This document shows, in pieces, positions 15,395 to 36,045 of a stretch of 64,000 nucleotides of DNA (positions are counted from its first letter, which is position 1; each line of letters begins with the position of its first letter). The translations under genes were made by a program, and so were the position numbers. The notes beneath the pieces are model-generated. The model saw only the letters and a list, made by a program, of their open reading frames with translations, did not search any database and had not been told where the DNA came from. This stretch comes from a virus. The stretch lies in the IMG/VR virus record IMGVR_UViG_3300047547_000161, positions 3,128-67,127 of that record. The stretch is one strand, 5' to 3'.

Positions 15395-16195
15395 TTAAGA
15401 TATTTGTTCGGTATATGTTATTTCTCTATCTTTTGCGAAATAATGTTCTTTTTTAGCCTGTGCAATCCACCATCTGTTTTCATCTGGTTTCATTGTTTCT
15501 TTGTATTGCGCAAACAATGAATTCTTTCTTTGGTTGACGTGTTTATAACCAAATTTAGGGATTACCATAGTTTTAACTGACTTGAAAGTCATTCTAAGCA
15601 AAAACTCATAGATAAAGGTTAGTTTTACGTTTGATTTGAAGCCACCGAATTGGTCAAACAATTCTTTCTTCATTACGATTCCATCAATACCAAAGTTTTG
15701 ATAAGCTAATAGTGCATTGTAATCCAAAATACCTAATTCATCAGAAAAACTTTGCGCCCAAACAGCTTCATTGGTAAATCCTTGGAAGGTGTTGTCTTTA
15801 TCGACATCAACAATAAGTGGCATAAAGATTTCAACATCTTTATGTGCCGCTCTGTACTTGATTACATTGTCAAACCAGATTGATGCGTATTCATCATCAA
15901 ATTCTAGGAAGCTAACCCAATCTGATTTAGCATTAGCAACGCCCAAGTTTATTTGTGTTTGAACGTCTGTCTTACCTTCGTTATCAACGAATGTAATCAA
16001 TGATTTAATGTCACCAAAATCAAATTCGTTTTTAATGTACGACATTGTTGTACTACCTTTAGGTGCTACTATTACAACCTCATCAGGTCTTACTTTTTGA
16101 ACTCTAATGCTTTGAATAGCGTTAGCGAACATTGGTTTTGTTGTGTCATCTAATTCATGTACTGGTAAGATGACTGAAATATTTGTGTTACTCAT
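15395..16195 (-). CDS. Glycosyltransferase family 2
   Basis: ISVILPVH, INLGVANAKSDWVSFLEFDD (GT-A DxD region), LFDQFGGF. Confidence 0.85.
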   Translation of the reverse strand: MSNTNISVILPVHELDDTTKPMFANAIQSIRVQKVRPDEVVIVAPKGSTTMSYIKNEFDFGDIKSLITFVDNEGKTDVQTQINLGVANAKSDWVSFLEFDDEYASIWFDNVIKYRAAHKDVEIFMPLIVDVDKDNTFQGFTNEAVWAQSFSDELGILDYNALLAYQNFGIDGIVMKKELFDQFGGFKSNVKLTFIYEFLLRMTFKSVKTMVIPKFGYKHVNQRKNSLFAQYKETMKPDENRWWIAQAKKEHYFAKDREITYTEQIS

Positions 16196-16198
16196 ATT

Positions 16199-16369
16199 TT
16201 ATTTTTGTTTTTTGTATTCTTCTAATAATTGTCTATATAACAATGATACGGCATCAATCTCATGGAGAATTGATGTTTGTGAGATAACATCACTCGTTGC
16301 GGTTGCTATTACCTTTTCTTCGCCGTTCTCATCTAAGATTGACATCCTTAAAGTATATTTTTTATCCAT
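16199..16369 (-). CDS. Small hypothetical protein (56 aa, absent from the ORF track)
   Basis: MDKKYTLRMSILDENGEEKVIATATSDVISQTSILHEIDAVSLLYRQLLEEYKKQK fills the gap between two GT genes and overlaps the upstream stop. Confidence 0.7.
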   Translation of the reverse strand: MDKKYTLRMSILDENGEEKVIATATSDVISQTSILHEIDAVSLLYRQLLEEYKKQK

Positions 16370-19361: not shown

Positions 19362-19369
19362 ATAAATAT
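19362..19369 (-). promoter_or_regulatory. Putative late promoter motif ATATTTAT
   Basis: 14 nt upstream of the phoH start. Confidence 0.65.
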
Positions 19370-20373
19370 CACCAAAAATTGAAGTTTGTCAATACATCAC
19401 AAATATATTCCGCTGAATGCCCGTTACCATATGGACAAGCTTGAAAATCGTGTTTTTTAGCCAAATTACGGTAAAATTCAGATTTTAGCATTCTTGGTGA
19501 CTCAACAAGGTGGCTAGTAAAACCAAGCGCTTCTGGTCTTTCAGTCACTTTTCTACACACTAGACACTGTTTGTTTAGAAACGAACATTCTTCTTGTAAA
19601 CCACCACTATCTGTTATGACCATTTTAGTTTTAACCAAAATCTCCAACAAATCTTCATGAGATAAAGGGTCTATAACTTTAACGTGTTTTAAAATGTGTT
19701 TTTTTGATTGAACGTTTGGATTAGGATGAATGGGTAAGATAAATTCATAGTTTGTGTGTTTTGCTAATTCATTTATTACTTCAAACCATTCGTCAATATT
19801 TTCATGGTTTTCGCGTCTATGTAACGTAACTAGAATTTGATTACCTTCTTCACATTTATCTTTATAAGATAGTAAGTTATCTAGAGCTGTGTTACCAACA
19901 ACGTATACATCATTAAAGATGTTTTCTTTTTTAAGGTTTTCAGCACTAACATTTGTAGGACATAGATGTATATCGGCGATGGTTGAAACTATTTTTCTGT
20001 TGTACTCTTCTGGATATGGGTTTTTTGTATCATAACTTCTTAACCCAGCTTCTAAGTGAATAACTGGTATTTGTCTGTGCATAGCAGCCATGGCCATACC
20101 AACAACAGATGTTGTATCACCTTGCACTATAACAGCTTTTACATCTTCAAAAACATGATAATTAAGAGTCATCAAATTAGCCATGATATTATCTAATCTA
20201 TTTTCGTGACTATATTCTTCGATATCCAAACGCATATCGTAGTAACCATTAACCAAAGTTTCGTGTTGACCAGTGAAGAATACCCTAAACGGTATTTCAC
20301 GTTTTCTCATTTCGTTAATGATGGGTTGTATCTTTATGTATTCTGGTCTAGTCCCGTATGTTAGTAGTATCAT
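19369..20373 (-). CDS. wecB: UDP-N-acetylglucosamine 2-epimerase (non-hydrolysing)
   Basis: GTRPEYIK, TGQH, VQGDTTS, HLEAGLRS, PYPEEYNR, TLHRREN, TDSGGLQEE, TERPE, PYGNG. Confidence 0.95.
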   Translation of the reverse strand: MILLTYGTRPEYIKIQPIINEMRKREIPFRVFFTGQHETLVNGYYDMRLDIEEYSHENRLDNIMANLMTLNYHVFEDVKAVIVQGDTTSVVGMAMAAMHRQIPVIHLEAGLRSYDTKNPYPEEYNRKIVSTIADIHLCPTNVSAENLKKENIFNDVYVVGNTALDNLLSYKDKCEEGNQILVTLHRRENHENIDEWFEVINELAKHTNYEFILPIHPNPNVQSKKHILKHVKVIDPLSHEDLLEILVKTKMVITDSGGLQEECSFLNKQCLVCRKVTERPEALGFTSHLVESPRMLKSEFYRNLAKKHDFQACPYGNGHSAEYICDVLTNFNFW

Positions 20374-20815
20374 CTGTTTTGTATTTTTCTATATAATCGC
20401 TGCAAACACCCACACATTTTGATACGTCAAAATTATGTTTTTCTGGCATCATAGCGATTGAACCCTCAATTGGTTCTTGGTCAACGTGTGATATAATATA
20501 AATTTTAGATGTTACTGTGGCTCTATCGTTTTCATGCCAAAAATAATTTATTTCATGTGTAAAATTTTTAAAATATTCCAACGCTTCTATATTTTTACAG
20601 TGTATCCAAAGTTTATTAGCCCGTTTTAAAAACCAGTTAATACTTAAACCACCATATAATGGTTTATCATGCCCTAACCAAATGATACCATCAACACACC
20701 AGACATCTATTTCAACATCATAACCTTTTTGAATCGCTAAATCAATATACGTTGGTTCATTTTCCCAAGATTCAAAACGACCATTAATGTTGCCCCTATG
20801 AGAAATTAGTATCAT
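20348..20815 (-). CDS. Small glycerophosphodiester-phosphodiesterase/PLC-like protein
   Basis: ISHRGN, ENEP, DVEIDVW, LGHD, WIHCKN, GVCSD. Confidence 0.75.
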   Translation of the reverse strand: MILISHRGNINGRFESWENEPTYIDLAIQKGYDVEIDVWCVDGIIWLGHDKPLYGGLSINWFLKRANKLWIHCKNIEALEYFKNFTHEINYFWHENDRATVTSKIYIISHVDQEPIEGSIAMMPEKHNFDVSKCVGVCSDYIEKYKTDDTTNIRD

Positions 20816-21465
20816 AAATTTTTGTTTGTTGCAATAATATCCCCTTCGTTAAATGGGTGATAAGCTTCGTTTATGAATATCAATTCAAAACCGTTTTCTT
20901 CTAAAAATTTAACTAGGTCTGTTTTAAGTAAATGACCCTCGTAGTATGGTAGCTCAGATGCCTCACAGTGTATAAATTTAACTTGTTTGATTTTATCACC
21001 CATACTTTTCAAAGCATCCAATTCAACACCTTGTGTATCTAACCACATAACATCAACAGTATCAATATTATTTTCATCTAACCATTCACCTAATCTAACT
21101 GATGGTACCGATATTTTGGTAAATGCTTGCGTTGACGCAAATGGTACATTCATAGGTTTTAATAATGATGAAGCACCAACATTACCGTGCGTCACATAGA
21201 AATCTAGTGTTCCGTTAGTATTACTAATTGCTAGTTGTGCGACTTCAATATTTGGGTATTGTTTTGACCTTTCAAAACAAATATCATATTGCGGTGGATT
21301 TGGTTCAAAGGCGAATATCTTTGCCTCACCAAACACAGAGTTAAACTCAATGCTTTGGTCCAAATCTCTAGAGCCAATATCTAGGATTACGTTAGGTACG
21401 TAATCTGGTTTTACTGTACGTATATGTGTTATGAATTTATCTATTAGCATTACTTTTTCCCCCAT
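20812..21465 (-). CDS. FkbM-family methyltransferase
   Basis: ILDIGS, FAFEPNP, ASSLL, MWLDTQGVELDAL. Confidence 0.9.
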   Translation of the reverse strand: MGEKVMLIDKFITHIRTVKPDYVPNVILDIGSRDLDQSIEFNSVFGEAKIFAFEPNPPQYDICFERSKQYPNIEVAQLAISNTNGTLDFYVTHGNVGASSLLKPMNVPFASTQAFTKISVPSVRLGEWLDENNIDTVDVMWLDTQGVELDALKSMGDKIKQVKFIHCEASELPYYEGHLLKTDLVKFLEENGFELIFINEAYHPFNEGDIIATNKNL

Positions 21466-22625
21466 TTTTCTATTGCCTTGTTATATTCTTCACCGTAGTT
21501 TTTATCTATCGCTTGACGCATAGCTAAACAACCGCCATATGTTCCGTCTGGGTGTCCATGAAGAGCGCCACCGACATTTGCCATATAATCAACACCTATG
21601 TTTTCATTTATGAAATCAATTAAACCTGGATGCATACCACAGCTAAGTGCTGGTGTTACGTCATGGTCTCTTAACACTTTAAGGACTTTTATCAACTCTT
21701 CTTTTTCATCATTTAGATAACCACCATACATACCAGCGTGTATTGAGTCAACACCCATGTACGCTGCTAGTTTACAGATAACATACCACTCAATTCTAAA
21801 GTCGTGAGTTTTGTTAGTTAAAATCTTATCACCACTTTTTTGAAAATGAATAAAGATTGGGAGATTCAAATCTCTGATAGATTTGTATACACCCATACCA
21901 GACCAAAAGTTTACGTGTACTGAGTTACCACCTAATTCATGTACTAATTTAACTCTATCTAAAATATATGCTGGGTCTGAGTTTATACATACAGAGTAAA
22001 TAACATTTTTACCTTTTAAGTATTCCATGATTTTAGGTACCCTATCTTCTATCTTACAAAAACTTGGGTTTGATAAGATTTCATCTTCTTTGATAAAATT
22101 GACACCACCTTCAACCATTTCTTTAACCATCTCTAGCAAAGTGTCGCTAGAGATACCTGTTTTAGGTTTAACAATACCACCAAAAAGAGGCTTGTCAAAT
22201 GTGTTGGTAAATTCTCTGAACCCACTTAACCCATATGAAGGTTTCTTAAACGTTTGTTTAATTGATTCAGGGAATTCAATATCCAATACGTGACATTTAG
22301 TTATGTTATCAATATCCAATTGACCACCCATGATAAAACATAAAAGTTGTGAGACACCATCTGTGTCCCAGTCGATGTTAATTTTAGGGAAGGCAATTTC
22401 TACGTTACCGTCTTTTTTGGTTTTGAGTTCTTCTTCATCACCAATAACCATGGCTGAATATTTTTCAAATAACTCGTCACTTTCCCATTTATTTCTAACG
22501 TTAGGATTACCAACGCTTTGACCTATTGCTAAGTTCCAAGCAGCGTCTCTTAAAGAGGTTACAGACTCAAGGTAGTATTTAACCATGATGTAATCTTCTC
22601 TGTTTATTTCTTGTTTAAATATCAT
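21450..22625 (-). CDS. RuBisCO-like protein (form IV-type, non-carboxylating)
   Basis: GIVKPKTG, GGVNFIKEDE, GVDSIHAG, PALSCGMHP, VGGALHGHPDG...AMRQA. Equivalents of E60, N123, H294 and K334 are substituted. Confidence 0.92.
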   Translation of the reverse strand: MIFKQEINREDYIMVKYYLESVTSLRDAAWNLAIGQSVGNPNVRNKWESDELFEKYSAMVIGDEEELKTKKDGNVEIAFPKINIDWDTDGVSQLLCFIMGGQLDIDNITKCHVLDIEFPESIKQTFKKPSYGLSGFREFTNTFDKPLFGGIVKPKTGISSDTLLEMVKEMVEGGVNFIKEDEILSNPSFCKIEDRVPKIMEYLKGKNVIYSVCINSDPAYILDRVKLVHELGGNSVHVNFWSGMGVYKSIRDLNLPIFIHFQKSGDKILTNKTHDFRIEWYVICKLAAYMGVDSIHAGMYGGYLNDEKEELIKVLKVLRDHDVTPALSCGMHPGLIDFINENIGVDYMANVGGALHGHPDGTYGGCLAMRQAIDKNYGEEYNKAIEKWGKK

Positions 22626-22945
22626 TTTACAATTACTTTATCATCAACAATTGATGGGGTTTTTATTATTACCAATTCACAATCTTCTAAGAATGTTGGT
22701 GCCGCCACAAACATTGGTTCTATTACGAAGATTTCACCTTCGTTAATTTCCGTGTCGTTAATCATCATCTTACCTTTAACTAGTAGATTTATTTCATGGA
22801 CATGTTCGTGATAATGGGTATCCCAAAATTCACCTTTTTTGTGTTTCTTATAACATACTTCAAAATCTTTAGAAGTAAATGCTGCTGGTTGGAAATTACC
22901 CACAAACCAGCCGCCAACCATATCTTTTAAATTATAGATTTGCAT
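22622..22945 (-). CDS. Cupin-domain protein
   Basis: GWFVGNF, HYHEHVHEINLLVKG metal-binding motif; 107 aa. Confidence 0.85.
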   Translation of the reverse strand: MQIYNLKDMVGGWFVGNFQPAAFTSKDFEVCYKKHKKGEFWDTHYHEHVHEINLLVKGKMMINDTEINEGEIFVIEPMFVAAPTFLEDCELVIIKTPSIVDDKVIVK

Positions 22946-23669
22946 GGTCTAAATATAGTTTTAAATCGCTGGGTGTACCTACAGCCCAGTGTTTATTTGT
23001 TGGTATTTCGTAAATTCCTATTTTCTTACCTAGTTCAATAAGTTCGTTATAGGTTTGTGAAACGTAAAATTCGTTATTGTAACGTATGTTTTTTTCAATC
23101 ATTTGCTTTGTTGATAAGACAAAATCTGAACCTTTCTTCCAGAAGTGGATTCCATTTAGTGAATGCTCACTTATTATTTGTTTTTCAGCAAACATTACGG
23201 CGTTACCGTTTTCGTCTATTTTCACGTAACTATTTTTTTCGGTAACTACATTATAAGTAACAACCAAACCATCTTTATCTGTGTTGAAGATGGCATCACT
23301 AAATTCATTTTCACCCCACTCCATGATTTGGTCACAATTTGCTATTACTAGAGGTGTGTCATTATCAATGTATTCAGAAGCCAATAAAGCAGTACTAGCT
23401 GGTCCTTCTGTCAAATAATCAATTTCGATAATTATTGCATCAGGAACTACTCTTTTTATTTCTGATACAAGCTCTTCCAATTGACCGTTACCCTTATTAA
23501 CCACGAAAATAAATTGACCAGATAGCTGTAAAGAATTTATGGCTAGTTCAATCATTGTCTTATCACCTATCTTAATCATTGGTTTGATATCTGTGTAACC
23601 GTCAATTTTAAATCTAGAGCCAGTACCAGCTGCTGGTATTAAAATGTTTAACTTATTTGTCATATTCAA
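22932..23669 (-). CDS. Sugar-phosphate nucleotidyltransferase (NTP-transferase, GT-A fold)
   Basis: LIPAAGTGSRF...KPMI, TEGPAST, IANCDQ, SYVK, AEK, NNEFYV, VGTPSDL. Confidence 0.88.
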   Translation of the reverse strand: MNMTNKLNILIPAAGTGSRFKIDGYTDIKPMIKIGDKTMIELAINSLQLSGQFIFVVNKGNGQLEELVSEIKRVVPDAIIIEIDYLTEGPASTALLASEYIDNDTPLVIANCDQIMEWGENEFSDAIFNTDKDGLVVTYNVVTEKNSYVKIDENGNAVMFAEKQIISEHSLNGIHFWKKGSDFVLSTKQMIEKNIRYNNEFYVSQTYNELIELGKKIGIYEIPTNKHWAVGTPSDLKLYLDHANL

Positions 23670-24240
23670 ATGCTGGGTATTTTTTGTAATCTTTGATACT
23701 TATATTCTTTTTTAACCATAAGATATCATTATCGTTGTTTAATTTTCCACCAAACAAACTTACCTTTTTACCTTGTTGGTTTATGTATTCCGTAATAATT
23801 GCTTCGGCATGTGTTGGGTATATATTTGTGAAGCTCCAGATGTTAATCATTGTATCTGTTTCCGATTCCATGACGTAATCAACAAAGTAGTCACTCCTAT
23901 CTGGCATTACATGATGGTAAAACAAGATGTTTATGTCTTCAGATAATGAACCCAACAAAGCCTCTGCATTCGTTGGTATCATATCGCTTCTCCATTTAAA
24001 CACCCTGTCATACCCTAATTCTTTGGCCTTTAAAACACCGTTATATGTGCTTACTTTTTGTAAGTTAACATTGCCAAAACCAGTCTCGTTTGGTTTCGGC
24101 GAATAAACCACAATATCATCTTCTTGATAGTGCGAATCTTCTCCGCTCCAAGTAGACCAAATTAAATCATAACCATCCCAAGCCCTTTTTAATTCATTAA
24201 CATGTGTTGATGGACCTTGAATCACTATTGCACGTTTCAT
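23653..24240 (-). CDS. WavE-like protein (putative transferase)
   Basis: AIVIQGP, IWSTW, NVNLQKVSTYNG, KWRSD match the WavE LPS-synthesis family pattern. Confidence 0.65.
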   Translation of the reverse strand: MKRAIVIQGPSTHVNELKRAWDGYDLIWSTWSGEDSHYQEDDIVVYSPKPNETGFGNVNLQKVSTYNGVLKAKELGYDRVFKWRSDMIPTNAEALLGSLSEDINILFYHHVMPDRSDYFVDYVMESETDTMINIWSFTNIYPTHAEAIITEYINQQGKKVSLFGGKLNNDNDILWLKKNISIKDYKKYPAFEYDK

Positions 24241-25268
24241 TTGCTGACTTGTTCTTCAATCCATTCATAGGTTTCCATTAAACCATTAAACAATGGCTCG
24301 GAAACAACCCAACCAACTTTTTCTTTATAGAGATTGTTATCTGAATTTCTACCTTTAACACCAATAGGACATTTGTGTCCGTATTTTATAAGGAATTCAT
24401 CACCATAAATGTTTTTTATTTTTATATTTTTTCTTGATAGGATAATAGCCATTCTAGCTAATTCGTTTATTGTAACCATTTCCTCAGAACCAATATTAAC
24501 TGGTCCCATGAAGCCAGAATCCATTAATCTTAAAATGGCTTCAACACATTCATCAATGTATAAGAATGAACGAGTCTGTGTACCATCTCCCCAAACCTCA
24601 AGTATTCCACCATCTGGTGTTTCAGCAGCCTTTCTACACATAGCAGCTGGTGCTTTTTCTTTGCCACCTTTCCAAGTACCTTGTGGTCCAAATATGTTGT
24701 GAAATCTAGCTATTCTAACGTTTAATCCGTGATTTCTGTGATAAGCCATGTATAGGCGCTCACTAAACAATTTTTCCCAACCATATTCAGAATCTGGGTT
24801 TGCTGGGTACGCTGAAGATTCTTCACAATTAGGGTTTTCTGGGTCTAGTTGATTATGTTCTGGATACATACAAGCTGATGAAGAATAGAACAGTTTCTTA
24901 ACATTTTTATCAGTGGCTTCTTTAGCAACATTTAAGTTGATTAATGCTGAATTATGCATAACATCTGAATCGTGTTCACCAGTAAAAATATATCCAGCAC
25001 CACCCATGTCAGCGGCTAATTGATATACTTCATCAAATGAATTTACATTATCTTTTGGTGACATTTGTTGTGGCGCATACATAACGACAGAAACCAACGA
25101 TGGGTCTCTTAAATCACCGACTATGAATTCGTCACATATTTCTTTTTCGTCAAAATATTCGTGTCTTTTAATATCAACGATTCTCACCCAATGCCCTTCT
25201 TGTTTTAATCTTTTAGCTAGATGACCACCAATGAAGCCGCCACCACCTAAAATCAATATTGTTTTCAT
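24237..25268 (-). CDS. NAD-dependent epimerase, GDP-mannose 3',5'-epimerase-like
   Basis: GGGGFIG, QLAADMGGAGYI, YSSSACMYP, YGWEK, RFHNIFGP, GGKEKAPAAMCRK, GVKGRNSDN. Confidence 0.9.
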   Translation of the reverse strand: MKTILILGGGGFIGGHLAKRLKQEGHWVRIVDIKRHEYFDEKEICDEFIVGDLRDPSLVSVVMYAPQQMSPKDNVNSFDEVYQLAADMGGAGYIFTGEHDSDVMHNSALINLNVAKEATDKNVKKLFYSSSACMYPEHNQLDPENPNCEESSAYPANPDSEYGWEKLFSERLYMAYHRNHGLNVRIARFHNIFGPQGTWKGGKEKAPAAMCRKAAETPDGGILEVWGDGTQTRSFLYIDECVEAILRLMDSGFMGPVNIGSEEMVTINELARMAIILSRKNIKIKNIYGDEFLIKYGHKCPIGVKGRNSDNNLYKEKVGWVVSEPLFNGLMETYEWIEEQVSK

Positions 25269-25846
25269 AAATTTTTAAGTATCTCAGTATATTCTTTGTT
25301 TTCACAAATTATGTGTTTGTATAAGGTCTCATCAATATAGTTAGGGTTAATCCACCAATCTTCAAAAGGATTCCCACTACATTTAACGTTTTTACAAACT
25401 AAAACGTATCCTAATTTTTCCAATAATTCTCTTTGTGGTTTTGCTTCAGTTAATTCATACCCCCTATATGAATCATGTTCAACTGTAATGACTTTAAATG
25501 TTCTATTGGATTCTAAAACTTTTTTTAAAGCTTTAAAACGGTGACCGTCACCTTCAATGTCTACTGTTAAATAATCAATAACCATTGGCATTTCATTTTC
25601 ATCGAACAACGAAGTGTAATCGGTTAATAAAGCATCGCCTTGTACAAATTTTGTTTTTCTAATCGCCCATTCTTCTGACATATCCAATATGTCTAATGAT
25701 AAACCATTCCAACCCATTTGTTCAAACATCAAAGTATTATTTAGTTCTTCTGGCATCCAACAACCAACGTCAACAAAAGTTCCGTTATTTATTGGCAACA
25801 TCTTCTTTATGAAAACATCTTGTCCCGATTGTGAGTGTGTGTTCAT
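25265..25846 (-). CDS. FkbM-like SAM-dependent methyltransferase
   Basis: SQSGQD, FVDVG, NNT, IDYLTVDIEG, ITVEH, EDWW. Confidence 0.8.
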   Translation of the reverse strand: MNTHSQSGQDVFIKKMLPINNGTFVDVGCWMPEELNNTLMFEQMGWNGLSLDILDMSEEWAIRKTKFVQGDALLTDYTSLFDENEMPMVIDYLTVDIEGDGHRFKALKKVLESNRTFKVITVEHDSYRGYELTEAKPQRELLEKLGYVLVCKNVKCSGNPFEDWWINPNYIDETLYKHIICENKEYTEILKNL

Positions 25847-26598
25847 TTTAATAGGTATTTAGCTCTTTCAATACAAGCTTGTTTGTTATCGTATAAATGG
25901 TCAACTATATCGTGTGTCTGAATGATTTTATAGCCATTGGTTTTGAATATCCAGTTATTGGCCGTTTGTTCGCAACAATGCCAAATTTTAACACCCAAAT
26001 CACTAACATCGCTGATATCAACATCAACCATTTTATCACAAATGGTTTTTAGTTCGGTTTCTGGGTAATTAGCTGGTATACCTAACACACCCAAATTATA
26101 GATTGGTAGTGACAAATCTTTGACCGTTTCTTGCACCACTTTTATCTCACCCATTCTTGGGTCTCCCTCACCAACCAATCGTTCGTATTTCCAAACAAAA
26201 ACAGCGTTGTCTTCTGGAGATGGTAATTGACCAGTAAAGACCAAATCATTATCTATTTTTACTGTAAAATCATCATTGCTTTTGGCACAATAAATAAAAT
26301 GGGTTAACATATCAAAGCTGTATCTAGACTCCCTTAATTTATTAATGTCTTCACTAAAATCAACATACACAACATTTTGAGGAACGCTGTATTTTTCCAT
26401 TTTTGATTTTAAAAAATCAACGTCATCGGTGTAAATGTGTAATGTTTGTTCCCTATGTTTATCCAAAAATGTCGCATATGACGCCGCTGAATATTCAAAT
26501 ATGAAATCTTTATCGCCATAGACACTTGGTGCCCATTTTCTACCAATATCAATTAATTTTGGTAGACTATAGTTGTATGTTAATGCTATTACTTTCAT
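25843..26598 (-). CDS. Putative GT-A-fold glycosyltransferase
   Basis: HIYTDD, KIDND (DxD), YNLGVLG, CEQ; lies in the glycan operon. Confidence 0.6.
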   Translation of the reverse strand: MKVIALTYNYSLPKLIDIGRKWAPSVYGDKDFIFEYSAASYATFLDKHREQTLHIYTDDVDFLKSKMEKYSVPQNVVYVDFSEDINKLRESRYSFDMLTHFIYCAKSNDDFTVKIDNDLVFTGQLPSPEDNAVFVWKYERLVGEGDPRMGEIKVVQETVKDLSLPIYNLGVLGIPANYPETELKTICDKMVDVDISDVSDLGVKIWHCCEQTANNWIFKTNGYKIIQTHDIVDHLYDNKQACIERAKYLLK

Positions 26599-26615
26599 CG
26601 GTAAAATTTAACAGT

Positions 26616-27377
26616 TTAAACGGATTTGTCAAGTTTTTTTGCTGAAAAATAGTACATTCCTTGTCCGTGTTCTATCTTTATAATCCTACACTCATAACCT
26701 TTCTTTTCAAGTTGTGGTATTATTGTTTCAGTTAACCAACCCATATTATTCTCGTTATAAAAATAATCACCCATCGCTATAAAAATGTTATCATGTTCTA
26801 ACATTTTAAGATTATTGACGTAGTAATCCCTAGTATTTATTGGTGTCTCGGAAATAGACCATAAGGCTAAGAATAATGACCCAGTTTTAACATCAGTGAT
26901 TTTATCCTCACCAGAAAGTAATGAAATATCTGTGATAGAATTTTGTTTTAAATAATAGTCTTGTATTCTACAAAGTTCTGGTATGTCATAGATAATGAAA
27001 TCACCACTGAAACCAGCTTTTCTAAAAAGTCTAGCGGTATTACCGTAACCACCACCAAATTCTGTTACCATAGAAAAATCAGACAGCTGAATGCCGATAT
27101 TATCCATCATTATTTGTAGTGAATAGGCGTGATGTAAATTATTGGTTGACGACATTGAGTAGATTGGGTGGGAGTTTGGTTGTAATACCGACTCACCTAT
27201 TTTATCACTCCAATAACCCCAATTATTCCTCAAATAATCAACTTCAACTGAATCTACCCCAGCTATCATTGTATTAATTAAAACATCCCACGTCATAAAC
27301 GTAGAAATATCTTTTGTGTCTAAGTAATTTTTTATTCTGTTTGTGAATGATTCCCACTCACCTAAATTTATGCTCAT
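26616..27377 (-). CDS. Putative sugar O-methyltransferase
   Basis: EFGGGYG SAM motif, YDIPE...QDYYL, ALWSISE. Confidence 0.8.
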   Translation of the reverse strand: MSINLGEWESFTNRIKNYLDTKDISTFMTWDVLINTMIAGVDSVEVDYLRNNWGYWSDKIGESVLQPNSHPIYSMSSTNNLHHAYSLQIMMDNIGIQLSDFSMVTEFGGGYGNTARLFRKAGFSGDFIIYDIPELCRIQDYYLKQNSITDISLLSGEDKITDVKTGSLFLALWSISETPINTRDYYVNNLKMLEHDNIFIAMGDYFYNENNMGWLTETIIPQLEKKGYECRIIKIEHGQGMYYFSAKKLDKSV

Positions 27378-28066
27378 ATTGTTCCTCTATTGTTTATATC
27401 TATGTGATATTGGTTTGTTAACCTAGTTAGTTCTTCAGCGTATTCAGATGTTATCCACTTACCCTTAACCAAAGCTGTTGCTATGTATGGGTAAACATTG
27501 CTATCATGGTGATTACCACCTCTTTTGGGTTCGTTATCAAAATGACACAAACCCTTTATGTTATTGGCTTTCATGAAGTCTTTATACCTATGTGTTTCTA
27601 ACCATTTTGATTCATGAACATTTTTTAAAATGTTGATGTAGTCTTTGGTTTTCCATATGGTAGCTTGCATTGCAAAGATGTAATCATTATCTGATGAAAT
27701 TTCATAAAGTGTGTCGGTTATTTGTTGGTTTATTTCACCTGATTTAATCAACCTAACAAATGAATAATCACTGTTTTTCAAAAACATAGAATATTCGTTT
27801 AGTTTGTGTTCTTTTACTCTATCGTATAAAATAAAGTCTTCTTGTAGGTACATAAACTGCTCTACATTCAATTTCTCCAATGCATTTATCCAGACATCAG
27901 AATAGTTATCAGACTCTGAATACAGGTATTGTTTATCTTCTGGCCAATATGGTATCAGTTTATCAGTTATAAAAATAATTGGCCAACTAAGCTTTTTAGT
28001 TTGTTCACCTATGAACATAGGCCATATATCACTACATTTGCTATTTGTGTATACAACTTGTACCAT
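27374..28066 (-). CDS. Putative GT-A-fold glycosyltransferase
   Basis: MYLQEDF, QATIW, TALVKGKW; lies in the glycan operon. Confidence 0.55.
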   Translation of the reverse strand: MVQVVYTNSKCSDIWPMFIGEQTKKLSWPIIFITDKLIPYWPEDKQYLYSESDNYSDVWINALEKLNVEQFMYLQEDFILYDRVKEHKLNEYSMFLKNSDYSFVRLIKSGEINQQITDTLYEISSDNDYIFAMQATIWKTKDYINILKNVHESKWLETHRYKDFMKANNIKGLCHFDNEPKRGGNHHDSNVYPYIATALVKGKWITSEYAEELTRLTNQYHIDINNRGTI

Positions 28067-28785
28067 TAAAATCTTGAGACCATTTGTCCGTATTGGCTGG
28101 TTGGTTCCATGTATGGTCTAGTTTTTCTACCATGGATAAACTCATCTATAGATGAGCCAACGTCAACGTAAGTGTTATAAGGATTGAATTCGTAAAGTTT
28201 GTGGATGATTATTTCCGAAACTGGACCACAAGAAACGAAGAATAATTCATTTTCTTTTGTGCCAACCATTTCTTTCATACCTTCAATGAACAAGTCACCA
28301 GATATAGCCCAAAAACTTATGCAGTTGTCTGGGAATAAAATCAAATTTTGAACCTTGAATGGGAAATTTTCCTTTTTAGCTCTATAGTTACATATCAAAT
28401 TAACTGGTCTATCTAACGATTTATAATTTTCAAGACTTCTTTGATAGTTGCTATTAATCCAAAGGTTTACAAAGGTTAAATTTTCTTCGCTGGTCTTTAA
28501 AGCATTTTTCAAATAATTGTAATCGCTTAAATTATCAGTGGGTGCTGATATAGCATAATAGTAATTAGGTTCAGTGTGGTTAATTGTCTCTAACAAATCA
28601 GTACCCACTTTTGTCATACCTAACGGAGCTGTCCATTTATCAACTAGCGCCGCTTGTGTTAAGTGATTGACAGCGTTACCGTTCATTAACATAACTTCAC
28701 CATCAGCATATCTAGCAAAAGCGAAGTTTTCGCCTTTATTAATCATTGACCAGAATTTATCAAAATCAGTATTAAATCTTTCCAT
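28066..28785 (-). CDS. Putative GT-D-fold (DUF1792-like) glycosyltransferase
   Basis: FAFARYADGE, SCGP and VDVGS resemble the R(F/Y)GDGE, LGP and DIG motifs of GT-D. Confidence 0.55.
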   Translation of the reverse strand: MERFNTDFDKFWSMINKGENFAFARYADGEVMLMNGNAVNHLTQAALVDKWTAPLGMTKVGTDLLETINHTEPNYYYAISAPTDNLSDYNYLKNALKTSEENLTFVNLWINSNYQRSLENYKSLDRPVNLICNYRAKKENFPFKVQNLILFPDNCISFWAISGDLFIEGMKEMVGTKENELFFVSCGPVSEIIIHKLYEFNPYNTYVDVGSSIDEFIHGRKTRPYMEPTSQYGQMVSRF

Positions 28786-32723: not shown

Positions 32724-33910
32724 TAAATTACGTCCACATAATTGCTTACGATGGTGTTGATATCCATTGATTTGATTTCAGACAAATCTGTTGACATCTC
32801 TATCGTTTTCTTAACCATTGGGTTTGTTTCCGTAGACACAAACAATCCGTTATTAAATCTAGAATTTACAATATTGAAGCCACCGTATAATTTGTTCATG
32901 TGTTCGATAATGTCATCATCAAACGCATGGATAATATCGAATTTAACGTCTTTAACCTTGTATAAGGTTTTAGGCGCTGATGGTTTAGGACCTTCTGGTG
33001 TTGGTATTTGCCATCTTCCGTCACCTAATGCAAAACCTGGTGGTTGTTGTATTGGTGCTAAATTAATTCCGCTTTGTTTAGCCAACATAGGCAGTTTTCC
33101 GCTCATGTTAGAACAAATCGTAACGTTATGTTTTAAAGCTTTCAAACGTTTAGCAATGTCGAAAACTATTTTGGCCTTGTTAGAGCTATCATCAAAAGCT
33201 AAGCTTGTCAACATGATATTAAGGCTTTCACCTTTTCTAAGTACTTTTTTTACATTAGCTGGTAAAAACGGTTTGTAATCATGAGCAAATTTTTCTCTGT
33301 TTTCTTCCCATTGTTCGTTAACTTGACCGATAGATTGGTGATTGATTCTTATGACGGTTGTTACACCGTTTTTAACACCACCCAAGAAGTTTTCAAAGCA
33401 AAAAGTTACATCATAGAAGTGATACCCAACAACGTTTTCGTTAAACTTTTGAACAATTTTTGTTTTGTCAACAGCAAAGAAAACACCATCGACAATAACT
33501 GTTTCTTCTATGTCTTGGTTTTGGTCTTTTGAATATTCAGATAACCAAGTTTTTCCTTCATGTGTATGAGCTACACGACCATACATTTTGGTTCTGTCTT
33601 CCCACCATTTACCAGTTGTTGGTAGAGATTTCGTACCAGCAACACCTAGAATACCATATTCTGGGTTTCTCTTAAAAAGCTTTAAAAGTTTGTTACCCCA
33701 TTGTTTTGTTTCAATGGTAATATCATCGTGACAAAACACAACAATATCGTTTTTGGCTTGTGATAAACCTCGGTTATATGATACGGTCAACGATTCTCCG
33801 TTATTGATAATTTCAATAACTTCTAATTTATTATGAAGACCTGAAGACTTTATCAAGTGTTCTGTATGTTCTGGCTTTGGTGCCCTAGTGCAGTATACTA
33901 CTGAAATCAT
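32723..33910 (-). CDS. Glycosyltransferase family 2-like with extra C-terminal domain
   Basis: SYNRGL, VFCHDD, GILGVAG, VDGVFFA, HFYD, HQSIG. Confidence 0.85.
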   Translation of the reverse strand: MISVVYCTRAPKPEHTEHLIKSSGLHNKLEVIEIINNGESLTVSYNRGLSQAKNDIVVFCHDDITIETKQWGNKLLKLFKRNPEYGILGVAGTKSLPTTGKWWEDRTKMYGRVAHTHEGKTWLSEYSKDQNQDIEETVIVDGVFFAVDKTKIVQKFNENVVGYHFYDVTFCFENFLGGVKNGVTTVIRINHQSIGQVNEQWEENREKFAHDYKPFLPANVKKVLRKGESLNIMLTSLAFDDSSNKAKIVFDIAKRLKALKHNVTICSNMSGKLPMLAKQSGINLAPIQQPPGFALGDGRWQIPTPEGPKPSAPKTLYKVKDVKFDIIHAFDDDIIEHMNKLYGGFNIVNSRFNNGLFVSTETNPMVKKTIEMSTDLSEIKSMDINTIVSNYVDVI

Positions 33911-34899
33911 TTTTTAAATCTGTTATATGCGTTATCTGTTATTTGTATTGTGTTTGCTTTACCTATAAAATCATTGAGTGTCTTGGCGTTGCAATAACTC
34001 ATAGCTGACCTTAAATAATCCTCAAAATTTTCAACCCATCCGCTAAGCGTATATTCAACTTTGCGTTTTCTAACAACACCCTCAGATGTTTTAACGGTTT
34101 CTCTACCCCACTTCATTTGTACTTCTTTGGTTGACATACCTCTGAACTTCTTATAAATTGGTAAGCCCCAATCGTAAAAAATTTCAGCATCTGTTTGATT
34201 GATTTTGATACCATAAAGGTAGTTATCACCACACGATTCAATAGCTTTATTAAAAAGACTACCAACCATAACGAAATCGGCACCTAACGCTAAAGCTTTT
34301 ATGATGTCACTATAATCCTTCATGCCGCCATCAGCAACGATTTTAGCTGGTTTTTGTAACGTGCAAGAAATGTCGTAACATTCTTTAATCAAAGAAGCCA
34401 TAGGGAAGCCGACACCAGTATGTACCGTTGTACTACAAGCGTTTCCGTTTCCAATACCAACCCTTACCATATCGGCACCAGCTTCAGATAACATTGCATA
34501 TGTTTCTGGGTTGGCTACGTTACCAACCATAAGCGTCATTTTCGGATAGGCTTCTTTAACAACCCTAGTTGTTTCAATCAAATTCTCCATATGCCCATTT
34601 GCAATATCTATCAAATACTTTCCTCTAGGTTTTAAATCACTGGACAAATATTTTGAGAAAAATTCGCTCAATGAATATGATGTAAACCCATCAATAGTGT
34701 GTTCACCCCTTGGTAAGCAAGTATTGATACGTAAATTGGTGAAGATTTTTTCGTTATCACTAGAAATTACAGTATCCATAGGTGCTGTTATAATTGGTAA
34801 TCTACCGTCAACATATGGGTTTATTTGACCCCTAGATTCAATTGTTGACACAGCAGCTGGCATCAACAGAATATCGTTAAAATCTAACTTTACGCTCAT
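33907..34899 (-). CDS. guaC: GMP reductase / IMP dehydrogenase family protein
   Basis: FNDILLMP, APMDTV, IDIANGH, VGNVA, RVGIGNGNACST (catalytic Cys), ADGG, FRGMS, SEG, LRSAMSY; no CBS domains. GuaC versus GuaB is not resolved. Confidence 0.8.
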   Translation of the reverse strand: MSVKLDFNDILLMPAAVSTIESRGQINPYVDGRLPIITAPMDTVISSDNEKIFTNLRINTCLPRGEHTIDGFTSYSLSEFFSKYLSSDLKPRGKYLIDIANGHMENLIETTRVVKEAYPKMTLMVGNVANPETYAMLSEAGADMVRVGIGNGNACSTTVHTGVGFPMASLIKECYDISCTLQKPAKIVADGGMKDYSDIIKALALGADFVMVGSLFNKAIESCGDNYLYGIKINQTDAEIFYDWGLPIYKKFRGMSTKEVQMKWGRETVKTSEGVVRKRKVEYTLSGWVENFEDYLRSAMSYCNAKTLNDFIGKANTIQITDNAYNRFKK

Positions 34900-34904
34900 G
34901 TTTT

Positions 34905-35480
34905 TTAGTTACTTCCAGTTGAACCAAAACCACCTTCACCTCTTTGAGTTTCGTCTAAAGACTCAACCTTTTCAAACTTCATAACGTGACCAGACATTAC
35001 AGGTGCAACAACACCTTGAGCAATTCTGTCTCCGTGATTTATTTTGAACGATTCGTTACCCAAATTAATAAGGATAACTTTAACCTCACCGCGATAATCT
35101 GAATCAACAGTACCTGGTGTGTTTAGTACAGTGATACCGTTTTTAGCAGCAAGACCGCTTCTTGGTCTTACTTGTAATTCAAGTGTTTCTGGGATAGCAA
35201 AGTATAAACCAGTAGGTACTACAGCACGTTCGCCAGCCATGAGAATTATTGGTTCATCAATATTAGCCCTAATGTCAAAACCAGACGAGCCACTTGTCGC
35301 AAAACTAGGGTCTTCGTTGTTTGATTTATTAATTAGTTTTATAGAAACTCTTGGGTCGGTTATTTGACCAGTTAAGTGTTCGAATTCTTTGTTAAAGTCA
35401 TCTACACTATATGAGTTATTAGGGTCGTTAGCTTCGTCATATTTTTGACGAATGTATTCTAATTCTTCAGTTGAAAACAT
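34905..35480 (-). CDS. dut: dUTPase (trimeric)
   Basis: [37 protein letters not shown]. Confidence 0.97.
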
Positions 35481-35481
35481 A

Positions 35482-36045
35482 TTAGTTGTTGTTTTGTTCG
35501 TGTTTGATTGCTAGTGTAATTCCCATTTTCAAAAGCTCACCCAACATTGAATTGTGGTGTTGTGACATTTTATCGTCAGCTTTATCATAGAAAAGGATTG
35601 CCGTATATTCCTCTTCAGTAAATTGAATACCATGGCTCATAGCGTAGTATATGCTGCGTTCAGATACCCTCATAGACACAATATCCTCGTTGAATTCGTA
35701 CATTTTACCTTGGTTTTTGCGGTGCCATTCTGATGTACAAGGTACATACAACTTAGCTTTACCGATACCATGCAAAAGACAAACTTTCAACAAGGATGCT
35801 TGGTCAACTCTTTCTTCTTCAGGAAGTGAATTGTTTATTCTTACAGCATAATTAGCAACACGAAGCAAATGGTCAATAAGACCACCTTCAAATGCGTTGT
35901 TATAGTCAGCCATGCTACTAGCAGGTGCTTTGATGAAGTCATCACCCAAAAAGGTCATAAGTTCATCGTTCATGAAACCATTTTTGGCAGCTGTTTCAAA
36001 AAATTTTTTTGTGTTTGAAACAACCCTCGTTTGTTCTAAGGTCAT
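35482..36045 (-). CDS. HD-domain-like protein with degenerate motif
   Basis: APAS...[13 protein letters not shown]...LLHGIGK (HD changed to HG). Confidence 0.65.

What the first reader, a model, noticed from the sequence alone, without database searches (positions are those of the whole stretch)
20348..24240. Phage RuBisCO-like protein in a coupled sugar-activation module (WavE-like, nucleotidyltransferase, cupin, RLP, FkbM, mini phosphodiesterase)
Seen: six overlapping genes inside a glycan operon. By eye (spinach numbering) the RLP keeps K175/K177 (KPK), the carbamate/Mg site K201-x-D203-E204 (KEDE), H327, S379 and G403/G404. It has E60 to G, N123 to G, H294 to Q, R295 to K and K334 to Y. 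Established: loss of K334/E60/N123 rules out RuBP carboxylation, and characterised RLPs run enolate chemistry in methionine salvage, sulfur metabolism or sugar-acid catabolism. Inference: this context is biosynthetic. The RLP and cupin may make an unusual phosphorylated sugar or small acid, the nucleotidyltransferase may activate it, and the WavE-like protein may transfer it to a glycan. That would be a RuBisCO-fold role in donor synthesis that I do not know to be described.
Basis: partly seen in the sequence, partly recalled or inferred. Interest (0 to 1): 0.88.

Follow-up and report, generated by a model that had tools for sequence, protein, structure and literature searches.

The report
Phage RuBisCO-like sugar-activation gene cassette
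A large uncultured tailed phage carries an intact relative of the CO2-fixing enzyme RuBisCO that cannot fix CO2 and travels, in viruses, bacteria and archaea alike, with a sugar-activating enzyme, a small isomerase-like cupin and a miniature phosphodiesterase, so it probably helps build an unusual activated sugar unit, a job never tested for this enzyme family.

Summary
Six overlapping minus-strand genes lie at 20348-24240 inside a glycosyltransferase-rich array of a T4-like phage contig. [quoted passage not shown]

The RLP belongs to a separate RLP clade (SH-aLRT 99). Its 16-residue active-site signature is identical in 125 of 140 rows from phages, giant viruses, bacteria and archaea. It reaches no NCBIfam cut-off for RuBisCO, MtnW or OiaX.

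The conserved unit has four genes, not six:
- Nucleotidyltransferase (NTase): 79 of 80 viral loci and 44 of 49 cellular loci.
- Mini phosphodiesterase: 73 of 80 viral loci.
- Cupin: 72 of 80 viral loci.
- FkbM and the WavE-like gene: 6 of 80 each.

RLP and NTase are fused in both orders.

Phage RLPs of this kind were reported in 2019 as "Form IV-like", with function unclear (PMC6389311). My searches found the gene linkage nowhere in print. This scan noted the cassette before on other DNA (140 findings).

Best reading: an enolising, non-carboxylating RLP feeds a donor-synthesis pathway. The chemistry is untested. Interest 0.7; new variant of a known kind.

The parts
21450..22625 (-). RuBisCO-like protein, 391 aa, 'Form IV-like' clade. 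Keeps the enolisation and Mg/carbamate residues and lacks the carboxylation residues.
   Evidence: Pfam PF00016 and PF02788. Below all NCBIfam cut-offs. Residue map. Clade support 99. Signature identical in 125 of 140 rows.
22932..23669 (-). Nucleotidyltransferase, 245 aa, TTG start. Core partner of the RLP.
   Evidence: PF00483 and PF12804 above cut-off. phrog_3980 E 5.7e-63. Nearest solved structure is 4evw, of unassigned function, at E 8.7e-10. Next to the RLP in 79 of 80 viral and 44 of 49 cellular loci. Fused to the RLP in P0055 and P0253.
22622..22945 (-). Minimal cupin, 107 aa, with an H-x-H...E motif; phosphomannose-isomerase-like fold. Core member.
   Evidence: phrog_24762. Alignment A3 has invariant H44 and E51 and near-invariant H46. 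Profile against the PDB E 2.6e-6. Model pLDDT 97. Foldseek best hits 7zvy and 7zvm at E 1e-5, TM 0.67. Present in 72 of 80 viral and 15 of 49 cellular loci.
20348..20815 (-). Miniature GDPD-type phosphodiesterase, 155 aa, with intact catalytic-type residues on a shortened barrel. Core member.
   Evidence: phrog_34507. 5595 relatives. Invariant H6 R7 G8 N9 E18 N19 E20 E35 D37 H49 D50. Foldseek best hits are GDPDs at E 9.4e-4. An NTase fusion in a Micrarchaeota locus hits PF03009 at E 4.9e-7. Present in 73 of 80 viral and 21 of 49 cellular loci.
20812..21465 (-). FkbM-family methyltransferase, 217 aa. Lineage-specific accessory inserted between the RLP and the phosphodiesterase.
   Evidence: PF05050 E 2.8e-19. 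TIGR01444. Present in 6 of 80 viral and 1 of 49 cellular loci.
23653..24240 (-). Shortened WavE-related protein, 195 aa. Candidate transferase; lineage-specific accessory.
   Evidence: PF07507 E 1.3e-3, below cut-off. hhalign 97.1% to true WavE proteins that flank the cassette in three cellular loci. Present in 6 of 80 viral loci.
24237..25268 (-). NAD-dependent sugar epimerase/dehydratase (SDR), 343 aa. Frequent neighbour, not core.
   Evidence: PF01370 E 2.8e-40. An SDR homologue lies within 4 kb in 13 of 80 viral loci.
19369..20373 (-). UDP-GlcNAc 2-epimerase (WecB type), 334 aa. Downstream neighbour, not core.
   Evidence: PF02350 E 5.9e-73. TIGR00236 243.6 bits, above cut-off. Present in 6 of 80 viral loci.

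Best explanation
The RLP, cupin, NTase and mini phosphodiesterase form one donor-synthesis cassette inside the phage's glycan gene array.

Shown:
- The four genes are co-inherited, shuffled in order and sometimes fused, across phages, giant viruses, bacteria and archaea.
- The RLP keeps the residues RuBisCO uses to bind Mg2+ and pull the C3 proton: the carbamate lysine, D203, E204, K175 and K177. It also keeps the backbone phosphate site (G381, G403, G404).
- It has lost the residues used after enolisation, in CO2 addition and cleavage (K334, E60, N123, H294).

Inferred:
1. The RLP enolises a host keto-sugar phosphate and re-protonates it to an epimer or positional isomer. Authentic RuBisCO does this as a side reaction, and characterised RLPs do it as their main reaction (established knowledge, recalled).
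2. The phosphomannose-isomerase-like cupin interconverts the ketose and aldose forms.
3. The NTase couples the resulting phosphate ester to a nucleotide.
4. Glycosyltransferases or phosphotransferases encoded nearby add the unit to a glycan. In this phage the WavE-related protein is one candidate.

The FkbM enzyme would methylate the unit in this lineage only. The role of the mini phosphodiesterase is not explained. It is tied to the NTase rather than to the RLP.
For: Linkage:
- In the best 80 of at least 397 viral contigs, the NTase is present in 79, the phosphodiesterase in 73 and the cupin in 72. At least 20 gene orders occur.
- In 49 cellular loci the NTase is present in 44. These include a complete Pelagibacter chromosome, SAR11 single cells, Beckwithbacteria, Saccharibacteria, Woese-, Nano- and Micrarchaeota, three Legionella species, Nonomuraea rosea and Azospirillum oleiclasticum. 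Four of the five misses are short or cut contigs.

Fusions:
- NTase-RLP (P0055, 637 aa) and RLP-NTase (P0253, 667 aa).
- NTase-GDPD (L030).
- HAD-NTase (L007, S-CAM9 gp067, Pelagibacter L015).
- NTase-DHBP synthase (S-SKS1).

Active site: the 16-residue signature is identical in 125 of 140 rows at 34-79% overall identity.

Cupin: best structural matches are the minimal phosphomannose isomerases 7zvy and 7zvm.

Context:
- GT2 and GT1/GT4-like genes and epimerases in the window.
- GT2, GT17, GT61, WavE and LicD genes beside the cassette in cells.

Cultured Synechococcus phages keep the NTase and mini phosphodiesterase but have HAD or DHBP-synthase enzymes where the RLP sits. No RLP was found among 50,697 phage records.
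Against: - No substrate, product or activity was measured, here or in any paper I found.
- The core holds no kinase or phosphomutase to make a sugar 1-phosphate. Only some variants carry a HAD domain that could do so.
- The NTase's nearest solved relative has no assigned function.
- The phosphodiesterase has no place in the scheme.
- Two loci with ample flanks have the RLP without an NTase: L014, and L071.
- The cupin is absent from 34 of 49 cellular loci, so it is not essential to the RLP-NTase pair.
- Gene linkage alone cannot say whether the RLP acts before or after nucleotide activation.
Confidence: 0.6

Rival explanations
1. CDP-alcohol route. The RLP makes a small ketol or polyol phosphate with a primary phosphate ester, as DHBP synthase does from ribulose 5-phosphate. 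The NTase makes CDP-X. The unit is added to the glycan as a phosphodiester-linked decoration by a LicD-type or other phosphotransferase. The GDPD-type enzyme handles that phosphodiester chemistry.
For: - A LicD-family gene (PF04991, E 1e-42) sits divergently beside RLP-NTase in Legionella nautarum. Homologues are present in all four Legionellaceae loci.
- An NTase homologue is fused to DHBP synthase (PF00926, E 5.4e-65) in phage S-SKS1.
- The core has no mutase or kinase.
- An NTase is fused to a GDPD domain in L030.
- The NTase also hits the MobA-like NTP_transf_3 family.
Against: - LicD was found only in the four Legionellaceae loci. It was not found in the phage record or in the other loci.
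- The NTase's best named relatives are sugar-1-phosphate enzymes such as RmlA and GlmU.
- The cupin resembles a hexose-phosphate isomerase.
- HAD-NTase fusions fit a sugar 1-phosphate route as well.
Confidence: 0.22
2. The RLP acts after activation. It enolises a nucleotide-linked keto-sugar made by the neighbouring SDR dehydratase or epimerase. The nucleotide's phosphate occupies the retained backbone phosphate site.
For: - SDR genes are frequent neighbours: 13 of 80 viral loci, and 18 of 60 sources in the cluster count.
- The anomeric phosphate next to a 2- or 3-keto group would mimic the C1-phosphate and C2-carbonyl arrangement of RuBP (inference).
- RLP-NTase fusions are compatible with either order of action.
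Against: - SDRs are absent from most loci, so the core cannot make a keto-sugar nucleotide by itself.
- No known RLP uses a nucleotide-linked substrate (recalled).
- The conserved basic residue at the R295 position and H327 suggest a second small anionic group rather than a bulky nucleotide (inference).
Confidence: 0.1
3. Salvage or catabolic RLP. The enzyme works in methionine salvage, nucleotide (AMP pathway) salvage or sugar-acid breakdown, as characterised RLPs and form III RuBisCO do, and the glycan neighbours are coincidental.
For: All characterised RLPs are catabolic or salvage enzymes (recalled). Weak NCBIfam similarity to form III (180 bits) and MtnW (157 bits).
Against: - All scores are far below the cut-offs.
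- The clade is separate from the MtnW, OiaX-like and form-III-like rows.
- The residue at the N123 position is glycine, not the lysine seen in the rows NCBIfam labels MtnW.
- No salvage genes were seen among the neighbours clustered over 60 sources.
- Linkage is to an NTase in 79 of 80 and 44 of 49 loci.
Confidence: 0.04
4. A true CO2-fixing RuBisCO carried as an auxiliary metabolic gene.
For: RuBisCO large-subunit fold. The carbamate lysine, Mg ligands and K175/K177 are kept.
Against: - K334, E60, N123 and H294 are all replaced, and invariably so across the clade. K334 is needed for carboxylation (established knowledge, recalled).
- No small subunit and no phosphoribulokinase appeared in the Pfam, PHROG or NCBIfam scans of about 45 of the window's ORFs of 100 aa or more. 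About 20 such ORFs were not scanned, and no targeted search for these two genes was run.
Confidence: 0.01

Closest known systems
'Form IV-like' RuBisCO-related proteins of phages and Beckwithbacteria (Jaffe, Castelle, Dupont and Banfield 2019, PMC6389311; passages read)
   Same: Encoded on large myovirus-type contigs. Highly divergent from other RLPs and placed outside them. Key residues differ from known form IV. Groups with Beckwithbacteria: a Beckwithbacteria MAG carries a 55%-identical homologue with the same signature and cassette.
   Different: The paper leaves function 'unclear'. Its main text never mentions nucleotidyltransferase, cupin, glycosyl or phosphodiesterase. Here the clade also reaches SAR11, Legionella, actinomycetes, DPANN archaea and giant-virus contigs.
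MtnW/YkrW 2,3-diketo-5-methylthiopentyl-1-phosphate enolase (methionine salvage)
   Same: RuBisCO fold, the K-x-D-E Mg/carbamate site, and enolisation chemistry without CO2 fixation. PDB 2oek aligns over residues 13-375 at E 2.1e-35.
   Different: NCBIfam scores are 157 and 135.5 bits against cut-offs of 409 and 513.6. Glycine replaces the lysine at the N123 position. It falls in a different clade. Neighbours are glycan genes, not salvage genes.
Rhodospirillum rubrum DeepYkrW RLP (5-methylthio-D-ribulose-1-phosphate 1,3-isomerase) and the apiose-pathway RLPs such as OiaX (recalled; the OiaX name comes from NCBIfam)
   Same: These are models for what a carboxylation-dead RuBisCO fold can do to a keto-sugar phosphate: proton shifts and decarboxylation through an enediolate.
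   Different: OiaX scores 126.7 bits against a cut-off of 700. The OiaX-like and MtnW-like rows lie elsewhere in the tree. Those enzymes are catabolic or salvage enzymes.
Type II phosphomannose isomerase/GDP-mannose pyrophosphorylase (NTase domain plus cupin domain) and the minimal Thermococcus phosphomannose isomerases (PDB 7zvy, 7zvm)
   Same: An NTase paired with a small metal-site cupin. The cupin model's best matches are 7zvy and 7zvm at 24-25% identity, rmsd 2.0.
   Different: Here the two are separate genes with an RLP between them. No Pfam MannoseP_isomer hit. The substrate is unknown. The bifunctional architecture is recalled, not tested here.
NDP-sugar cassettes of cultured Synechococcus myoviruses (S-CAM9, S-PRM1, B3/B23, S-SM2, Bellamy, S-SKS1)
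   Same: Homologous NTase (30-44% identity) and mini phosphodiesterase (36-44% identity), in glycosyltransferase-rich regions.
   Different: No RLP in any of 50,697 phage records. The feeder enzymes there are HAD hydrolases or a fused DHBP synthase.
Glycerophosphodiester phosphodiesterases (GDPD, PF03009)
   Same: The H-R-G, E-N-x, E-x-D and H-D pattern. GDPD structures are the best fold matches.
   Different: Only 155 aa against about 220-250. No Pfam hit for the window's protein. The profile against the PDB reaches only E 0.17. It is cytoplasmic and paired with an NTase, and its substrate is unknown.

Membership tests
RuBisCO large-subunit superfamily | Catalytic TIM-barrel domain (PF00016) plus N-terminal domain (PF02788) | tested here: met
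   118.9 bits against 30.1, and 24.0 bits against 20.7. 99 PDB chains at E <= 1e-3.
Authentic RuBisCO (forms I-III) | Full carboxylase residue set including K334, E60, N123 and H294 | tested here: not met
   Y303, G35, G101 and Q262 stand at these positions.
Authentic RuBisCO (forms I-III) | NCBIfam equivalog cut-offs (TIGR03326, NF003252, NF010002) | tested here: not met
   180.4 against 497.45, 168.6 against 438, and 98.1 against 489 bits.
MtnW/YkrW enolase | NCBIfam cut-offs NF007095 and TIGR03332 | tested here: not met
   157.1 against 409, and 135.5 against 513.6 bits. A true MtnW row (P0337) scores 652 and 641.
MtnW/YkrW enolase | Lysine at the N123-equivalent position; methionine-salvage neighbours | tested here: not met
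   Glycine here, lysine in the MtnW rows. Neighbours are the NTase, cupin, GDPD and GT genes.
OiaX-type apiose-pathway RLP | NCBIfam cut-off NF042437 | tested here: not met
   126.7 against 700 bits.
'Form IV-like' phage/Beckwithbacteria clade (Jaffe et al. 2019) | Phage-borne on myovirus-type contigs; groups with Beckwithbacteria sequences; lies outside all other RLP groups | tested here: inconclusive
   T4-type head protein. Beckwithbacteria homologue at 55% identity with the same signature. The clade is one branch at support 99.
IV-GOS RLP clade (Tabita et al. 2007; recalled, paper not held) | Ocean-metagenome RLP group of unknown function | not testable with these tools
   Only Yooseph et al. 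2007 (PMC1821046) could be read. It reports 65 GOS RuBisCO homologues in new groups. No sequences to compare.
Sugar-phosphate nucleotidyltransferase (PF00483 / PF12804) | Pfam gathering scores; N-terminal G-x-G-x-R loop | tested here: met
   28.3 against 21.2, and 30.9 against 27 bits. Invariant P12 G15 G17 R19 in alignment A4. No NCBIfam equivalog cut-off is reached, so specificity is unknown.
Cupin (Cupin_2 / minimal phosphomannose isomerase type) | Double-stranded beta-helix with an H-x-H...E metal motif | tested here: met
   Invariant H44 and E51, near-invariant H46. All-beta model, pLDDT 97. 133 PDB matches at E <= 1e-3, best 7zvy and 7zvm. Isomerase activity itself was not tested.
GDPD phosphodiesterase (PF03009) | Pfam gathering score; full (beta/alpha)8 barrel of about 220-250 aa | tested here: not met
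   No Pfam hit. 155 aa. TM 0.50 to 1v8e.
GDPD phosphodiesterase (PF03009) | Catalytic H-R-G, metal E-x-D and second His | tested here: met
   Invariant H6 R7 G8, E35 D37 and H49 D50 in 30 rows. The GDPD domain of the L030 NTase-GDPD fusion passes PF03009 (30.5 against 23.6 bits), but it did not match the window's phosphodiesterase at my tblastn threshold.
FkbM methyltransferase | PF05050 and TIGR01444 cut-offs | tested here: met
   70.3 against 22.7, and 77.5 against 37.7 bits.
WavE (PF07507) | Pfam gathering score | tested here: not met
   18.5 against 27 bits, covering profile positions 25-110 of 305. Related by profile-profile comparison (97.1%, E 6.7e-11, 134 columns). It is therefore a shortened relative, not a filed member.

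The most novel reading that the evidence does not exclude
The NTase and mini-GDPD pair is a general activation platform with interchangeable feeder enzymes: RLP plus cupin, HAD, or DHBP synthase. This RLP clade would catalyse a reaction not yet known for any enzyme. One example is rearranging a common ketose mono- or bisphosphate straight into the phosphate ester that the NTase activates, which would make a kinase and a mutase unnecessary. The product would be a new nucleotide-linked building block, used from phages and giant viruses to SAR11, Legionella and DPANN archaea.
Probability: 0.25. Interest if true: 0.88.

Novelty: new variant of a known kind. Interest (0 to 1): 0.7.

Why it matters
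RuBisCO-like proteins are a standard case of an old fold taking on new chemistry, yet every assigned function so far is salvage or catabolism (recalled). This clade is large. It has 2535 database relatives and is found on at least 397 viral contigs. It also occurs in abundant or cultivable cells, and its active site is nearly invariant.

The clade has been orphan since metagenomics first turned up unclassified RuBisCO homologues. The conserved and sometimes fused NTase partner makes the question testable. It gives a defined four-gene set to express and a clear read-out: a new nucleotide-linked compound.

If confirmed, the result would add a biosynthetic role to the RuBisCO superfamily. It would also point to an unrecognised sugar or phospho-substituent on the surfaces of phages or their hosts. 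Finally, it would caution against counting viral "rbcL" hits as carbon-fixation genes.

Tried and rejected
- RLP against the 50,697 GenBank phage records by tblastn: no match. Cultured phages therefore give no RLP example.
- First genome-contig scan with the single protein: nothing. The second scan, with alignment A2, gave 49 loci.
I could not see the contigs that carry the fusions P0055 and P0253, nor the contexts of the weakly attached sister group (P0319, P0294, P0336, P0338).
- Mini phosphodiesterase against PDB sequences: the single sequence gave only chance-level kinase hits, and the profile gave one GDPD at E 0.17. The assignment rests on motifs and fold.
- WavE-like protein against PDB sequences: nothing. 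BLASTP against the 260-aa neighbour family: nothing. hhalign between these two families: 29% only.
- LicD in the phage's own record: none. A LicD profile over all loci found only the four Legionellaceae copies.
- Complex prediction of RLP with NTase: no verdict, score 0.00. It says nothing either way.
- The look-up of sequencing runs: 9 DNA holders and no RNA holder listed, so there is no information on expression. The two full holders may be the source sample and are labelled freshwater. I had assumed a marine origin and dropped that.
- Tabita et al. 2007 is not held, so the IV-GOS comparison stays a recollection.
- The literature search for WavE function returned the everyday word "wave". 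I make no claim about WavE's activity.
- Searches for the RLP-NTase link in print found only Jaffe et al. 2019 and Yooseph et al. 2007, and neither names the link. Subscription journals are mostly not covered. The supplementary gene maps of Jaffe et al., which might show the neighbours, were closed.
- Considered and rejected: a cyanophage assignment. The head protein's nearest relatives are Microcystis and Flavobacterium phages at 35-38% identity, so the host is unknown.
- The count of about 37 of 80 viral and 12 of 49 cellular loci with the 260-aa family was made by eye from the listing.
- The 140 rows are not de-duplicated. The window is counted twice, and at least eight of the contigs recur among the 80.

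Full report
**What is there**

The window is an IMG/VR virus record of 67127 bases that CheckV estimates at 19% complete. It encodes a T4-type major head protein (phrog_138, E 1.3e-68) and tail-fibre proteins. The head protein's nearest cultured relatives are Microcystis and Flavobacterium myoviruses, at only 35-38% identity. This is therefore a large, distantly T4-like phage of unknown host. The only full holders among public runs are labelled freshwater and may be the source sample.

Minus-strand genes run almost without gaps from about 15395 to 38011. They include:
- GT2 genes at 15395, 28772, 31225 and 32723.
- GT1/GT4-like genes at 16362, 30404 and 36737.
- An SDR epimerase and a WecB epimerase.

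The six genes of the finding sit in this array exactly as described and overlap by 4-17 nt.

**The RLP**

The 391-aa protein is a full-length RuBisCO large-subunit homologue (PF00016 E 3.4e-34; PF02788 E 4.7e-5). I mapped residues through the HMMER alignment to PDB 8dht and a 114-row alignment with authentic RuBisCOs. The spinach numbers are recalled.

- Kept: K175, K177, K201, D203, E204, H327, S379, G381, G403 and G404.
- Changed: E60 to G, T65 to N, N123 to G, H294 to Q, R295 to K, K334 to Y.

The kept residues are those RuBisCO needs to bind Mg2+ through the carbamate and to enolise its substrate, plus the backbone phosphate site. The lost residues act later, in CO2 addition and cleavage (established knowledge, recalled).

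NCBIfam scores are far below every cut-off:

| Model | Score (bits) | Cut-off (bits) |
|---|---|---|
| Form III | 180 | 497 |
| MtnW (NF007095) | 157 | 409 |
| MtnW (TIGR03332) | 135.5 | 513.6 |
| OiaX | 127 | 700 |

**Its family**

- The word-indexed search found 2535 relatives. The best 120 are all 65-92% identical.
- The exhaustive search of 50%-identity representatives found 1200 proteins at E <= 1e-3 and 74 at E <= 1e-30.
- In a FastTree of the 114 full-length rows, the window's protein sits in a 29-row clade with support 99.
- An IQ-TREE quick run on 56 rows (15 clade rows and 41 others that I picked to span the tree) again puts the clade on one branch, SH-aLRT 99.
- Rows outside were labelled by NCBIfam: a true MtnW (P0337, above cut-off), an MtnW-like row, an OiaX-like row and a near-form-III row.
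- A four-row group of unknown function attaches as sister only weakly (support 88).
- The 16-position signature G-N-G-K-K-K-D-E-Q-K-H-Y-S-G-G-G is identical in 125 of 140 rows drawn from all fetched loci. Twelve rows differ only at the R295, H327 or G404 positions, and three are cut short (rows not de-duplicated).

Such constancy at 34-79% overall identity points to one conserved reaction.

**Linkage**

A pattern scan of viral contigs with alignment A2 found at least 397 contigs encoding a relative. A genome scan gave 49 cellular loci: a complete Pelagibacter chromosome, many SAR11 single-cell genomes, Beckwithbacteria, Saccharibacteria, Patescibacteria, Woese-, Nano-, Pace- and Micrarchaeota, Legionella nautarum, L. 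maceachernii and L. drozanskii, Nonomuraea rosea, Azospirillum oleiclasticum and others. Some MAG contigs could themselves be viral.

| Gene | Viral loci, within 4 kb (n = 80) | Cellular loci (n = 49) |
|---|---|---|
| NTase | 79 | 44 |
| Mini phosphodiesterase | 73 | 21 |
| Cupin | 72 | 15 |
| SDR | 13 | 5 |
| FkbM | 6 | 1 |
| WavE-like | 6 | 0 |
| WecB | 6 | 0 |

- The commonest viral order is NTase, cupin, RLP, phosphodiesterase (32 loci), with some twenty other arrangements.
- Four of the five cellular misses for the NTase are short or cut loci. L014 is a real exception, as is viral L071.
- The conserved unit is therefore four genes. The FkbM and WavE-like genes belong to this phage's sub-lineage.

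**Fusions**

- P0055 (637 aa, four cluster members) is NTase-RLP. P0253 (667 aa) is RLP-NTase.
- Homologues of the NTase are also fused to:
  - a HAD domain, in viral L007, S-CAM9 gp067 and Pelagibacter L015;
  - DHBP synthase, in phage S-SKS1 (PF00926, E 5.4e-65);
  - a GDPD domain, in Micrarchaeota L030 (PF03009, E 4.9e-7).
- Cultured Synechococcus myoviruses carry the NTase (30-44% identity) and the mini phosphodiesterase (36-44%) in glycosyltransferase-rich regions, with no RLP.

The NTase and phosphodiesterase thus look like a common platform that different sugar-phosphate enzymes feed. The RLP with its cupin is one such feeder.

**The small partners**

- Cupin. It has invariant H44 and E51 and near-invariant H46. 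Its profile hits cupin domains at E 2.6e-6. Its model (pLDDT 97) matches the roughly 110-aa Thermococcus phosphomannose isomerases best (E 1e-5, TM 0.67, rmsd 2.0, 24-25% identity). That suggests an aldose-ketose isomerase of a sugar phosphate.
- Mini phosphodiesterase. Its family is larger than the RLP's (5595 relatives). It keeps an invariant GDPD-type catalytic pattern on a shortened barrel. GDPDs are the best but modest fold matches (E 9.4e-4, TM 0.50). Its role is unexplained.
- WavE-like protein. It is a shortened but genuine WavE relative (97.1% by hhalign). Full WavE genes (PF07507, E 1.2e-46) flank the cassette in three cellular loci.
- A further family of about 260 aa has no Pfam match. 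It follows the cassette in roughly 37 of 80 viral and 12 of 49 cellular loci, but it is not in this window (counted by eye).
- In the four Legionellaceae loci a LicD-family gene (E 1e-42) faces the RLP-NTase pair.

**How it most likely works**

Shown: co-inheritance, fusions, an invariant enolisation-competent but carboxylation-dead site, an isomerase-like cupin, and a glycan-gene setting.

Inferred:
1. The RLP enolises a host keto-sugar phosphate and re-protonates it to an epimer or isomer.
2. The cupin shifts the ketose and aldose forms.
3. The NTase activates the product.
4. Nearby transferases use it.

I put this at 0.6. The main rival, at 0.22, is a CDP-alcohol route in which the unit is added as a phosphodiester-linked decoration. 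LicD in Legionella, the DHBP-synthase fusion and the absence of a mutase or kinase support that rival. Action on an already nucleotide-linked keto-sugar (0.1), a salvage role (0.04) and true CO2 fixation (0.01) are less likely.

Against all of these readings: nothing has been assayed, the core lacks a step that would make a sugar 1-phosphate, and the phosphodiesterase has no assigned task.

**What is known**

Jaffe et al. 2019 reported about 80 phage RLP sequences and two Beckwithbacteria ones as a divergent "Form IV-like" clade of unclear function (PMC6389311; passages read). Yooseph et al. 2007 saw 65 ocean RuBisCO homologues in unclassified groups (PMC1821046; passages read).

Eight full-text searches found no paper linking an RLP to a nucleotidyltransferase or to glycan synthesis. 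Most subscription journals are not covered.

This scan has already noted the same cassette on other DNA: 140 findings in at least 92 genomes. Those notes led me to the Jaffe paper, and my own counts agree with them.

**Verdict**

This is a new functional variant of a known enzyme kind, not a new kind. The existence of phage RLPs is already published. The biosynthetic cassette is not, as far as I could search. Interest 0.7.

Noticed in passing
P0358 (583 aa; representative hit): A TIR domain (PF13676, E 3.3e-13) is fused to a full RuBisCO-like protein. It lies outside the clade studied here, and the row's signature lacks the carbamate lysine. It may be a defence-type protein built on the RuBisCO fold.
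   Followed up: no
P0290 and P0298 (726 and 742 aa): An IF-2B-family isomerase domain (PF01008) is fused to a RuBisCO with the full carboxylase signature. This looks like two consecutive steps of a ribose-bisphosphate pathway in one chain.
   Followed up: no
L013:6001-7425 (Synechococcus phage S-SKS1, SWZG_00042): One protein joins an NTase homologous to the window's with a DHBP synthase (PF00926, E 5.4e-65). It is annotated only as the synthase. The adjacent 118-aa 'phosphoheptose isomerase' scores as a HAD/NT5C-type hydrolase instead.
   Followed up: partly
L030:9013-10527 (Micrarchaeota MAG contig): A 505-aa protein combines an NTase with a GDPD domain (PF03009, E 4.9e-7), two genes away from the RLP.
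   Followed up: partly
L056:5639-6490 and homologues in L057, L059, L060: A LicD-family phosphotransferase gene lies divergently beside the RLP-NTase pair in all four Legionellaceae loci. A CMD-family gene and a weakly Wzy-like gene lie further upstream.
   Followed up: partly
L008:7614-8399 and relatives: A family of about 260 aa with no Pfam match follows the cassette in roughly 37 of 80 viral and 12 of 49 cellular loci, but it is absent from this window. It may be the cassette's usual transferase.
   Followed up: partly
L014 (15 kb, uncultured bacterium MAG) and L071 (viral): These carry RLPs of the same clade (63% and 68% identity) with no NTase, cupin or phosphodiesterase within the fetched flanks.
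   Followed up: no
window 33907-36045, minus strand: Nucleotide-metabolism genes sit inside the glycosyltransferase array: an IMPDH/GMP-reductase-like gene (PF00478, E 5.1e-45), a dUTPase/dCTP-deaminase-like gene (PF00692, E 7.9e-31) and an HD-domain gene.
   Followed up: no
window 49223-51790, plus strand: An 855-aa protein holds nine repeats matching phrog_25468 (E 2.7e-126). It lies next to a 1650-aa ORF at 44246-49198 and a tail-fibre-like gene at 40544-42328.
   Followed up: no
window 25265-28785, minus strand: Five consecutive genes of 193-253 aa in the glycan array have no Pfam hit. The first two also have no NCBIfam or PHROG hit. Homologues of some accompany the cassette in a few related viral loci.
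   Followed up: no
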